Origin: Octopus sinensis
Lineage: Eukaryota
DNA: 8,182 nt
NCBI RefSeq assembly: GCF_006345805.1
Contig: NW_021828490.1
Span: 1-8,182 of the forward strand
Direction: 5' to 3'
The position numbers and the translations under genes are program-made. The notes beneath the pieces were generated by a model. That model made no database searches. It had not been told where the DNA came from and saw only the letters and a list, made by a program, of their open reading frames with translations. This document shows, piece after piece, positions 1 to 3,135 of the stretch. The first letter of the stretch is position 1. The number at the start of each line of letters is the position of its first letter.

Positions 1-287
1 AAAATTTGCCGTTTATAATTATACCATATGTTGTATATGCAGTGGTACCTTGACTTACGTGTTTAATTTGTTCCCTGACGGAGCTCGTAACTCAAATTAC
101 TCGTATGTCAAATCAAATTTCCCCATTGAAATAAATTAAATGCCATTAATCCGTTCCGAGCCCCCACCAAAACCGCAATTATTTTTGTTATTTGTTTTTA
201 AATAAGAAAAATTTATTTATAAATAACGAATATTGCATAAAAAACAATGCAATAGAATGTACTGAAATAAACTGGTTTTATTAAGCA

Positions 288-774
288 CTAGCAGTATCGC
301 CCGGCGTTGCTCGGGTTTGTAAGGGAAATAACTATATAAGCATTTTTAGTGAGTTATAGCCAAAAAATAGCAAAAAAATGGATTAAAGATGGAATAAAAA
401 AGGATGGTAATTTTGGTGTCTTCAAGCCATGAAGTCGTTGTTCTAAAAGAACGCTGGTCTCCTTGACAACGTATTACGACGTTGATTTCCTTACACTCCC
501 TTCCCCACAGCTTCACGAGGGAGGGAAGAAGGGGGAGAAGCAACGCCATCGACACACGAAAAACTATGCATTAAAATGGAATAAAATGATGTTAAATTAT
601 TTTTTAAATCGTAGACTCATCGTAGACGCGCGCTAATACCCAGACGGGCTCGATATGAATCACGACTATAAGATACCCGAATTTGGTTAAACTGCACCGC
701 AAAATGTGGGAGTAGTTAGGAATCTAAATCGTAGGAGACAGACACTCACACAACTACAGTTTTATATATATAGA
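288..774 (-). mobile_element. Non-autonomous Helitron-like element, copy 1 (487 bp)
   Basis: On the minus strand it starts TC (TCTATATATATAAAA, 774 down) and ends CTAG (288-291). A GC-rich subterminal hairpin lies at 300-315 (CCCGGCGTTGCTCGGG). It is inserted between A287 and T775 with no TSD. A second copy at 2738-3135 has the same boundaries. Confidence 0.85.
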
Positions 775-834: not shown

Positions 835-1033
835 GAAAAGTTCTATCTACGACGATTTCATCTCAATCGAAGGAGAGGAGGCTTTCTCCGTCCGGGTTGC
901 GGATCCGTGGAATAAGCTGCCGGACGAGATAGTGAAGATGCCGACGACCGCTCGGTTCAAAGTCTCTCTTGACCAGAAATGGCCTGAACTCTTTACATGA
1001 ACACCACCCTGTACATAACTCCATGTCCCCCTA
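835..1033 (+). mobile_element. CR1-clade LINE 3' fragment A (ORF2 C-terminus plus start of 3' UTR)
   Basis: It reads EKFYLRRFHLNRRRG / (1-nt frameshift) AFSVRVADPWNKLPDEIVKMPTTARFKVSLDQKWPELFT*, with the stop at 998-1000. This is the CR1-type terminal motif FSxRVxxxWNxLP...FKxxLD. Confidence 0.82.
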
Positions 1034-1155
1034 AACGATGCCGTGGTGATCTCATTCTTGCTCACAACATCATAAGCGGAAAGTGTATCCTCTCGAAAGA
1101 GCTGTTCTTCACTCCTGCTCCAGAGCCTCGGCTGCGGGGTCACTCCGAAAAGCTC

Positions 1156-1156
<1 letters not shown>

Positions 1157-1204
<48 letters not shown>
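1157..1204. repeat. (AAT)16 microsatellite
   Basis: Direct reading of a perfect trinucleotide run. Confidence 0.97.
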
Positions 1205-1205
<1 letters not shown>

Positions 1206-1210
1206 GTAAA

Positions 1211-1282
1211 GAAATACCTATTTCTTTACTACCCACAAGGGGCTAAACACAGAGGAGACAAACGGATTAAGTCGATTACATC
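1211..1282 (-). mobile_element. Short 3'-terminal fragment of a probable cephalopod SINE (Nin/Deu-domain type)
   Basis: The minus strand reads GATGTAATCGACTTAATCCGTTTGTCTCCTCTGTGTTTAGCCCCTTGTGGGTAGTAAAGAAATAGGTATTTC. I recall this as the 3' end of an abundant octopus SINE. It is not part of the CR1 sequence as shown by fragment A. The family name is unverified. Confidence 0.6.
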
Positions 1283-1340
1283 TCAATCGAAGGAGAGGGG
1301 CTTTCTCCGTCCGAGTTGCGGGGTCACTCCGAAAAGCTCT

Positions 1341-1367
1341 AATAATAATAATAATAATAATAATAAT
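1341..1367. repeat. (AAT)9 microsatellite
   Basis: Direct reading. It follows the same GAAAAGCTCT flank as the first run. Confidence 0.97.
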
Positions 1368-1629
1368 AAGTTCTCATCTCAATCGAAGGAGAGGGGCTTT
1401 CTCCGTCCGAGTTGCGGATCCGTGGAATAAGATGCTGGACGAGATAGTGAAGATGCCGACGACCGCTCGGTTCAAACTCTCTCTTGACCAGAAATGGCCT
1501 GAACTCTTTGTATGACCACCCTCCCTGTACATAATTCCGTGTCCCCTTACATGGCCTTGCTTTTGCTTTTTGAGCCAATAGAAATTTAATTGAACTGAAG
1601 TGAAAAGGCTGAACTGAATAACTGAATCT

Positions 1630-1953
1630 TATTTGCTGATTTTTGTCCTTTGCGCCACGCTTTCCTCTCTCCTCTGCAGGAATTTTCGATGAAAACCTGT
1701 CCAATGAGGTCTGTTTCATCCTCACTTTTAGAGTGTTTTTGAAATGTGTTAGGCAAGTGTCATTAAATAGCGCCATCGCACGCCCAGTTGCGACTTTCTC
1801 TGGGTGTTTCCTATGAGTAGAATCTGGAAGTTTCTCCCACATTATCCACATTTCCTTTATCGCACTGGTAGAGGGAACCTCCTCCGGCTCCTCCGCATTA
1901 CCTTTTCCCCGCAAAACCTCCGTGTGCCGCTGCGTCTGTAGCTCCTTTAGCTC
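1630..1953 (-). pseudogene. Tigger/TIGD-like transposase C-terminal fragment
   Basis: ELKELQ...IKEMWIMWEKL...KHPEKVATGRAMALFNDTCLTHFKNTLKVRMKQTSLDRF contains the Tigger C-terminal KQTSLDxF motif. It is in the same reading frame as the 2089-2391 fragment. Confidence 0.85.
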
Positions 1954-2088
1954 CCCCACTATGACCCCGCAACTCCGGGTCATAGTGCTAGTATATATAT
2001 ATATAAATGGCCAAATGTCTGTGTGTGTGTGTGCCCTTTATACAAATCCACAATTTTTCAGTTAGAGGGCTCGCAGTTTCTATGGTCA
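1954..2088 (+). mobile_element. Helitron-like tail-to-head junction fragment (3' end of ~38 bp joined to ~97 bp of 5' end) from a second family
   Basis: A perfect 11-bp stem CACTATGACCC/GGGTCATAGTG (1957-1967/1977-1987) is followed by CTAG (1988-1991) and then TATATATATATATAAATGG...TGTCTGTGTGTG. Both halves resemble the corresponding ends of the full Helitron copies in this window. Confidence 0.7.
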
Positions 2089-2391
2089 TTCCTTGGAGTG
2101 CTCCTCAATGATCTCATTAATGTAACCATCATTCACGTCGAGGTCAATGGACTTGTCGAGAGACACAATCTCCTCCACAACTGCCGCTTCGAGTTCGAAT
2201 CTTTCAAAATCCGTTTCGGACACAACCATAGGCCACAGCTTCTTCCACGCAGAGGTCAAGGTCCTCTTTCTAAAACCCTGCCAGGTCATATCGATAATTC
2301 TGAAGCATACCACGATGTTATAGGGGTCCTTCCAGAACTCTAGAAGGGTGAGGTTTGTGCTCTCCCTCGTCTCAAAGCAGCAGCGGAACAG
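2089..2391 (-). pseudogene. Tigger/TIGD-like transposase fragment (end of the DDE domain and the acidic region after it)
   Basis: Translation LFRCCFETRESTNLTLLEFWKDPYNIVVCFRIIDMTWQGFRKRTLTSAWKKLWP...DFERFE...VVEEIVSLDKSIDLDVNDGYINEIIEEHSKE matches the recognisable Tigger pattern (TLxEFWK..., AWKKLWP, DFEGF, VEEIVSLG, EEHxxELT). The first 19 aa of ORF 2086..2448 are unrelated read-through. Confidence 0.88.
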
Positions 2392-2528
2392 GATAGATGT
2401 CCGCTGTCGACAGTCCCAGATGGACCTACCTAACGGCAAGAGGTGCAAATGAGGGTAGCTACATCAAACTCCATTCTTCATCAAGTGCCAAATATAAGGC
2501 TCTCAGTAATAACAGTGTAGCACGAAAC

Positions 2529-2737: not shown

Positions 2738-3135
2738 CTAGCAGCATCGCCCGGCGTTGCTCGGATTTGTAAGGGAAATAACTATATAAGCATTTTTAGA
2801 GAGTTATAGCCAAAAAATAGCAAAAAATGCATTAAAAATGGAAAAAAATGATGGTAAATATTTTTTTTAATCATTGACTCATCGTAGACATTTTTAGAGA
2901 GTTACTTCCCTTATATAATAGCGAAAAAAATGTATTAAAATGGAAAGAAATGATGGTAATTTTTTTTTAAATCGTAGACTCATCGTAGACGCGCGCTAAT
3001 ACCCAGAAGGGCTCGATATGAATCACGACTATAAGATACCCGGTTTTGGTTACACTGCACCGCAAAATGTGGGAGTAGTTAGGAATCTAAATCGTAGGAG
3101 ACAGACACACACAACCTCACTTTTATATATAAAGA
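2738..3135 (-). mobile_element. Non-autonomous Helitron-like element, copy 2 (398 bp)
   Basis: It has the same termini as copy 1 (A|CTAGCAGCATCGCCCGGCGTTGCTCGG ... TTTTATATATAAAGA|T) and an A/T insertion site. The terminal ~120 bp and ~190 bp are very similar to copy 1. Confidence 0.85.
2791..2990. repeat. Imperfect tandem duplication (~100-bp period, 2 units) inside Helitron copy 2
   Basis: CATTTTTAGAGAGTTA...ATTAAAA(A)TGGAAA..AATGATGGTAA...GACTCATCGTAGA occurs at 2791-2888 and again at 2889-2990. Confidence 0.85.

What the first reader, a model, noticed from the sequence alone, without database searches (positions are those of the whole stretch)
1954..2088. Permuted Helitron tail-to-head junction captured inside a Tigger transposase: possible fossil of a circular rolling-circle intermediate
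Seen: two in-frame transposase pieces (...EEHSKE | ELKELQ...) are separated by 135 bp of foreign DNA. The insert is a Helitron 3' end (hairpin + CTAG) followed immediately by a Helitron-like 5' start, so the termini are in the middle and the broken ends face outward. Its 3' end CCCCGCAACTCCGGGTCATAGTGCTAG parallels CCCGAGCAACGCCGGGCGATACTGCTAG of the full copies. Its start TATATATATATATAAATGG..TGTCTGTGTGTG parallels their TCTATATATATAAAACTG..TGTGTGAGTGTCTG. Known: Helitron (Helraiser) transposition yields circles with CTAG-TC head-to-tail junctions, and the Tigger consensus normally has about LTTE between these peptides, so ~3-4 codons look lost. Inference: a piece of a Helitron circle or tandem concatemer was patched into a double-strand break by end joining rather than by normal A|T insertion. 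Caveat: the junction reads CTAG-TA, not CTAG-TC.
Basis: partly seen in the sequence, partly recalled or inferred. Interest (0 to 1): 0.72.

Follow-up and report, generated by a model that had tools for sequence, protein, structure and literature searches.

The report
Repair patch copied from Helitron tandem
A 135-base piece spanning the tail-to-head join of two rolling-circle transposon copies sits inside a broken transposase gene; it was likely copied there during DNA-break repair from a chromosomal tandem that survives elsewhere in the genome, so it is likely an ordinary repair scar and not the fossil of a circular intermediate.

Summary
A 135-bp insert interrupts a DDE_1 (Tigger/pogo-type) transposase copy; 0 of 29 other copies carry it. 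Both halves belong to one ~364-bp non-autonomous Helitron family ('B', over 2,400 heads), not to the two full Helitrons in the window.

The circle reading is not supported. Only three B-tail|B-head junctions were found genome-wide. One, in a tandem on contig C27, has the same CTAG|(TA)7 join and shares three rare variants with the insert (36 of 2,410; 9 of 1,834; 3 of 518). The first C27 copy's head lacks the head variants, so this is not a fresh monomer-circle junction. The right joint sits on a 7-of-8 microhomology; left-joint microhomology is not shown. Most head-to-tail junctions here join different families, and three C27 units against 21 empty paralogues show nesting at a resident head, as the scan noted on other DNA (e1-10335465). 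The insert is also present in a related organism.

Verdict: likely a templated repair insertion copied from a chromosomal tandem. How that tandem formed (nesting or rolling-circle read-through) stays open.

The parts
1957..1991 (+). Family-B Helitron 3' end: 11-bp stem hairpin (the remainder of a 17-bp palindrome) plus CTAG; carries the rare variant shared with the C27 tandem
1992..2091 (+). Family-B Helitron head (about the first 100 bases), starting (TA)7 instead of TCTC(TA)5; carries two rare variants shared with the second C27 copy
1988..1995 (+). Tail-to-head join CTAG|TATA; one of three B|B junctions found in the genome
   Evidence: confirmed by contigs of X1, X2, X4
1954..1960 (+). Left joint zone: letters fit the target majority at 6 of 7 (with two ambiguous columns) and the Helitron arm at 4; microhomology not shown above chance
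2085..2091 (+). Right joint zone: 7 letters shared by the Helitron and the target with a one-letter gap (15 of 24 target copies match all 7)
2089..2392 (-). Upstream piece of the dead DDE_1 (Tigger/pogo-type) transposase copy
1604..1953 (-). Downstream piece of the same transposon copy (further pieces at about 774-838 and 14-285)
286..773 (-). Full family-A Helitron (A|TC...CTAG|T) inserted in the same Tigger-type copy; not the source of the insert
2738..3135 (-). Second full family-A Helitron (A|TC...CTAG|T); not the source of the insert

Best explanation
The insert is a 135-bp copy of a Helitron tail-to-head junction that also stands in a chromosomal tandem on contig C27, and it was likely written into a break in a dead Tigger-type transposon by templated end joining. 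Shown: both halves are termini of family B; the junction and three rare variants are shared with the C27 tandem; the outer ends are internal Helitron sequence; the right joint lies on a 7-of-8 microhomology; other target copies are empty; the insert is present in organism B too. Inferred: a broken end copied about 125-135 bases from the C27 tandem or its parent and rejoined through microhomology, losing 1 to about 11 target bases. The enzyme (polymerase theta or a synthesis-dependent annealing route) is not tested. Open: whether the C27 tandem first arose by one B copy landing at the A|T of another's head, or by rolling-circle read-through.
For: B|B junctions: 2 with CTAG|TA (window, C27:12339439; both (TA)7 ATGGCC), 1 with CTAG|TC (C10); a looser pattern gave 5 matches, the same 3 plus 2 chance ones. 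Shared rare states: head variant 36 of 2,410, 31 of them on C27; internal variant 9 versus 1,825, 2 of the 9 in the C27 tandem and 1 in the window; hairpin variant 3 exact among 518 within one mismatch. The product is about 4e-7 (rough, the states are not independent). The head of the first C27 copy has the majority letters at these sites, so the states likely accumulated on the chromosome before copying; none of the other 6 carriers of the internal variant has the head variant. Right joint: 7 of 7 letters with one gap, null 0.0002 in 200,000 draws (score chosen after seeing the joint). 0 of 29 other target copies carry B sequence at the site. Size and junction features fit class 2 templated insertions, 73-414 bp (PMC5110952, passages).
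Against: Left-joint microhomology is not above chance (2 of 4 letters against most copies, null 0.25). The window and C27 differ at about 8 positions, 2 private to the window and 6 to C27 (binomial p 0.29), about as much as two random B copies (median 3.7% each from the majority), so the donor may be a parent of the C27 tandem rather than C27 itself. Both chromosomal B|B dimers share one rare hairpin-arm variant (23 versus 3,320 genome-wide), which hints at a donor lineage prone to rolling-circle read-through. The window is an unplaced 8-kb contig, so its distance from C27 is unknown. Sequence alone cannot separate a chromosomal template from a strand or transcript released from the same locus.
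Confidence: 0.7

Rival explanations
1. The patch was an extrachromosomal Helitron intermediate: a monomer circle, or a strand peeled from the C27 tandem (or its parent) by the transposase after reading through the weakened hairpin, captured at the break.
For: Helraiser makes circles with tail-to-head junctions, about half of them aberrant before DpnI selection (PMC4778049, PMC5876387, passages). The copying is about as old as the family's burst. A CTAG|TC dimer between A and T exists at C10. Both chromosomal dimers share a rare arm variant.
Against: No monomer with all the shared states was found. The first C27 copy's head lacks them. A monomer circle would need two captures of one rare molecule. 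The join is TA, and 0 of 30 inspected CTAG|TA junctions follow a B end.
Confidence: 0.13
2. A B tandem inserted normally at an A|T in the Tigger-type copy and was later trimmed by two deletions, one on each side.
For: 7 of 24 target copies have A at site letter 5 and 17 of 24 have T at letter 6, so an A|T may have stood there. The right-hand microhomology also suits a deletion.
Against: It needs two deletions that each stop within a few bases of the insertion point. Organism B shows the same left joint. The C27 tandem has no final 3' end.
Confidence: 0.08
3. The patch was RNA-templated: a transcript across the C27 tandem was reverse-transcribed into the break.
For: Class 2 templated insertions are proposed to come from RNA (PMC5110952, passages). 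LINE-like pieces are frequent around both loci (family not tested).
Against: No poly(A), target duplication or splice sign distinguishes it; transcription of the donor was not tested.
Confidence: 0.07
4. The insert is an assembly chimera of repeats.
For: The window is a small unplaced contig; the right joint is not bridged by 31 letters.
Against: Contigs of X1 and of organism B cross the left joint and the CTAG|TA join. The insert differs from the C27 junction at about 8 positions.
Confidence: 0.02

Closest known systems
Class 2 templated sequence insertions / filler DNA at repaired breaks (PMC5110952, passages; maize filler DNA 1-131 bp, PMC2686159, passages; POLQ templated insertions, PMC7454005, passages)
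   Same: Short copy of sequence from another locus, donor left in place, no target duplication or poly(A), microhomology and small loss at the joints; 135 bp lies within the 73-414 bp range reported.
   Different: The copied stretch happens to span a Helitron junction; it is old and shared by two organisms rather than a known polymorphism. It is longer than the 2-35 bp POLQ insertions in the passages read.
Head-to-tail Helitrons made by consecutive insertion (maize r1 region, PMC2267711, passages; nested Helitrons, PMC3288121, passages)
   Same: [quoted passage not shown] Seen here in 3 C27 units against 21 empty paralogues.
   Different: Here it is frequent (89 + 32 junctions at B heads) and mostly gives CTAG|TA. 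For the C27 B|B junction itself nesting is inferred, not shown.
Helraiser circles and rolling-circle tandem arrays (PMC4778049, PMC5876387, passages; Xiong et al. as summarised in PMC12628747, passages)
   Same: A 3' hairpin plus CTAG joined to a head of the same family. Arrays with several heads and one tail also occur in family B (L010, L027, L196).
   Different: The join is TA, not TC; the two halves trace to two different chromosomal copies; no circle was observed.
Canonical non-autonomous Helitron1 elements
   Same: Family B starts A|TC (21 of 30) and ends hairpin-CTAG|T (16 of 16 called ends).
   Different: Its 3' end is a perfect 17-bp palindrome with CTAG on both arms and a loop found in both orientations.

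Membership tests
Helitron1 non-autonomous family (source family B) | 5' TC after a host A | tested here: met
   21 of 30 unselected heads A|TC, 4 other letter|TC, 5 without TC
Helitron1 non-autonomous family (source family B) | 3' hairpin then CTAG, followed by host T, no target duplication | tested here: met
   16 of 16 called ends among those 30 are followed by T; hairpin. Duplications were looked for by eye only.
Helitron1 non-autonomous family (source family B) | Mobilised by a RepHel transposase | tested here: inconclusive
   An element with a related end carries a Pif1 2B piece (E 2.4e-15); B itself is non-coding and its partner was not identified
Helitron transposition product (the insert itself) | Outer ends are TC and CTAG at an A|T target | tested here: not met
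   Outer ends are internal B sequence; the termini are in the middle
Helraiser-type circle junction | Precise CTAG|TC join | tested here: not met
   CTAG|TA
Helraiser-type circle junction | Both halves come from one monomer | tested here: not met
   The tail state traces to the first C27 copy and the head states to the second; no monomer with all states among exact-pattern matches. An unassembled monomer is not excluded.
Helraiser-type circle junction | Exists as an extrachromosomal circle | not testable with these tools
   Only assembly and contigs were available
Class 2 templated insertion | No target duplication, no poly(A) | tested here: met
Class 2 templated insertion | Microhomology or small loss at the joints | tested here: met
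   Right joint 7 of 7 with one gap, null 0.0002; 1 to about 11 bp lost; left joint not above chance
Class 2 templated insertion | Donor sequence still present at another locus | tested here: met
   C27:12339417-12339538, 89% over 130 bases, with shared rare states
Class 2 templated insertion | Polymorphic presence or absence | tested here: inconclusive
   No joint skipping the insert was listed in 4 runs (3 samples at most); contigs show presence, not absence
Tigger/pogo-type DNA transposon (host element) | DDE_1 transposase | tested here: met
Paralogues L039 and L059 hit PF03184 (E 1.8e-31, 1.1e-12) and align with both window pieces. The window pieces alone gave no hit.
Tigger/pogo-type DNA transposon (host element) | Terminal inverted repeats and TA target duplication | not tested
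   The window copy is truncated at 2392

The most novel reading that the evidence does not exclude
A Helitron transposase peeled a strand or circle off a tandem whose first hairpin was weakened, and host break repair used that intermediate as the patch. The insert would then be a genomic record of a rolling-circle intermediate diverted into repair, and the arm variant shared by both chromosomal dimers would mark a read-through-prone donor lineage.
Probability: 0.13. Interest if true: 0.55.

Novelty: new member of a known kind. Interest (0 to 1): 0.22.

Why it matters
As it stands it is one well-resolved repair scar with an identifiable donor. Its use is as a caution: a tail-to-head Helitron junction, even a perfect CTAG|TC, is not evidence of a circle, because in this genome about nine in ten inspected ones join different families and paralogous empty sites show nesting. 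If the novel reading held, it would be in-genome evidence that Helitron intermediates are used as repair patches, which four paper searches (listings only) did not turn up.

Tried and rejected
Pfam on the two window peptides: no DDE_1 hit; the family call rests on paralogues. Search for an allelic or duplicate copy of the window locus: best other match 88% over part, so no empty allele in the assembly. Laying contigs on the C27 junction: no listed piece bridged it, so the donor's presence in organism B is unknown. Run X3 and the low-share runs gave no listed piece across the insert; not evidence of absence. Comparing the window with five C27 stretches found only common repeats, so linkage to C27 is untested. 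The idea that 135 bp in frame has coding meaning: rejected, 3 stops. The idea that the insert derives from the window's two full Helitrons: rejected, different family. The idea that the shared arm variant marks dimers: only 2 of about 10 full B copies with it are dimers, and the two dimers share nothing else. Tree test of the loop flip: near-star tree, little power. PMC4224331 held no passage on head-to-tail junctions; PMC1794268 was not held; Pritham and Feschotte's and Xiong's results are taken second-hand from PMC2267711 and PMC12628747. No supplements were read. A search of earlier scan notes for this captured junction gave 0 findings.

Full report
Setting. The window is the whole of contig C4961 of a 2.72-Gb genome. 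Earlier scan notes call this genome an octopus; I did not test that.

Observation. The 135 bases at 1954-2088 separate two in-frame minus-strand peptides...EEHSKE and ELKELQ.... The frame has 3 stops inside the insert. Paralogous copies encode DDE_1 and align with both peptides, with four residues (L-T-x-E or similar) between them. Of 40 matches to the right flank, 29 other copies were fetched (81-88% identical); 0 of 29 carry Helitron sequence at the site. A contig of run X1 covers 1694-2004 without a difference. Contigs from one sample of organism B cover 1616-1999/2004 with 20 substitutions and 11 gap letters, none listed in 1957-2004. The insert is therefore real and likely predates the split of the two organisms. 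The right joint is crossed by only 16 letters on its short side.

Source family. Both halves map to the two ends of one non-coding element of about 364 bp, here called B. It has 2,410 exact head motifs and 3,320 exact left-arm motifs. Of 30 unselected heads 21 read A|TC, and 16 of 16 called ends read CTAG|T. Copies lie a median 3.7% from their majority (43 near-full copies plus two dimer copies). The two full Helitrons in the window belong to a different family, A.

A chromosomal twin of the junction. Exact patterns found two B-tail|B-head junctions with CTAG|TA (the window and C27:12339439, both (TA)7 ATGGCC) and one with CTAG|TC (C10). A looser pattern gave 5 matches: these 3 and 2 chance ones. 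At C27 a full B copy is followed by a 157-base head unit and a further partial unit. The window shares three rare states with that junction. The head variant is in 36 of 2,410 heads, 31 of them on C27. The internal variant is 9 versus 1,825, with 2 of the 9 in the C27 tandem and 1 in the window. The hairpin variant is 3 exact among 518 within one mismatch; one more carrier appears among the 100 listed. The product is about 4e-7, a rough figure. The two junctions therefore have one origin.

Why not a monomer circle. In a circle, tail and head come from one copy. Here the tail state belongs to the first C27 copy and the head states to the second, while the first copy's own head has the majority letters. 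None of the other six carriers of the internal variant has the head variant. The simplest reading is that these states accumulated on the chromosome and were then copied. After copying, the window gained about 2 changes and C27 about 6 (p 0.29). Two of those six lie in the joint zones, where the window's letters also equal the target majority.

Joints. In 24 of 29 copies in register, 12 bases lie between window 1953 and 2089. On the right, target and Helitron share 7 letters with a one-letter gap (15 of 24 copies match all 7). A null of 200,000 random joints gave 0.0002, though I chose the score after seeing the joint. On the left, the window fits the target majority at 6 of 7 letters, but overlap with the Helitron arm is not above chance (null 0.25). 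Target loss is 1 to about 11 bp by assignment. Neither outer end is a Helitron terminus. These features match class 2 templated insertions (PMC5110952, passages), maize filler DNA (PMC2686159, passages) and microhomology-primed POLQ insertions (PMC7454005, passages; those are shorter). The pathway is inferred.

What head-to-tail junctions mean in this genome. B heads are preceded by a CTAG in 89 places with TA and 32 with TC. Of 30 TA cases inspected, 27 follow a family-A-type end, 3 are other and 0 follow a B end. Of 30 TC cases, 26 were called A-type (one doubtful), 3 other (two are decayed A-type ends) and 1 follows a B end. Among 26 C27 loci, 21 show one flank directly before the B head. 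In three further-fetched units a 1.83-1.94 kb Helitron sits exactly between that same flank and the head, giving a perfect CTAG|TC; one such element carries a Pif1 piece. Of 17 TA junctions fetched far upstream, the incoming element's start was found in 15, and 8 of these are preceded by a TC(TC/TA)n remnant of the resident head. Nesting at a resident head thus makes such junctions without a circle, as proposed for maize (PMC2267711, passages; PMC3288121, passages) and noted by the scan on another piece (e1-10335465). Later deletion in the 21 units is a less simple alternative.

What stays open. How the C27 B|B junction formed is not settled. Nesting is favoured because the second copy's head variant matches the neighbouring cluster's copies. 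Against that, B tails rarely precede B heads, the C10 dimer looks like a read-through product, and the first copies of both dimers share one rare arm variant (23 versus 3,320) and nothing else. A rolling-circle origin of the tandem, followed by decay and later copying, is compatible with everything seen. A strand or transcript released from the tandem cannot be told from the chromosome by sequence. Circles with precise and aberrant junctions are documented for Helraiser (PMC4778049, PMC5876387, passages). Searches for a report of a captured Helitron junction fragment (listings and abstract starts) showed none, which is weak evidence of absence.

Verdict. Observation confirmed, interpretation partly supported. 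It is likely a templated repair insertion copied from a chromosomal Helitron tandem (0.70): a new member of a known kind, interest 0.22. All genome counts are exact-pattern counts and miss decayed copies.

Noticed in passing
Family-B 3' ends, e.g. L067, L070, L166-L192: The end is a perfect 17-bp palindrome with CTAG on both arms, and its 5-base loop occurs in both orientations: 21 versus 15 of 43 copies, 7 uncalled. The state is not clustered on a near-star tree (10 changes versus 11.8 shuffled), which suggests recurrent flipping. One paper search (listing only) showed no report for Helitrons.
   Followed up: partly
G000 genome-wide: 73 of 89 CTAG|TA junctions have the same spacing to the B head motif (five TA units), suggesting a measured joining position at resident heads or a few amplified composites.
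   Followed up: partly
L002:1501-1535 and L063:1476-1513: The first copies of both chromosomal B|B dimers carry the same rare left-arm variant (23 versus 3,320 genome-wide) and share no other change. Unexplained.
   Followed up: partly
L063:1151-1646 (C10:28.357 Mb): A B dimer between A and T with a precise CTAG|TC join and an internally deleted second copy; the best candidate here for a rolling-circle read-through product.
   Followed up: partly
L010, L027, L196, L002: Tandem repeats of the first ~157 bases of B followed by one tail or none; in L196 and L002 the later units start at base 5. This resembles the many-heads, one-tail arrays described in plants.
   Followed up: partly
G000:C27 12.50-13.01 Mb (L138-L162, L193-L195): A tandem cluster repeats one B insertion in more than 20 units; three units carry a second Helitron, of two different types, at the same A|T edge.
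   Followed up: yes
L200, L211: Head-to-tail pairs of a third start type in which the second copy begins two bases short.
   Followed up: no
L207; L088/L089 (C1:62.0647-62.0649 Mb): B heads arranged head-to-head around a TA run or around another Helitron.
   Followed up: no
L002:480-700: A stretch resembling C2H2 zinc-finger coding sequence lies upstream of the donor tandem (seen by eye, motif recalled, not tested).
   Followed up: no
window 838-1600: A partly duplicated repeat piece (880-1005 matches 1395-1520 at 94%) with two (TAA)n runs is inserted in the same Tigger-type copy; LINE-like by appearance only.
   Followed up: no
L257-L279: About half of the arm-variant matches belong to a sister element that shares only B's last ~50 bases and has an imperfect hairpin.
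   Followed up: no
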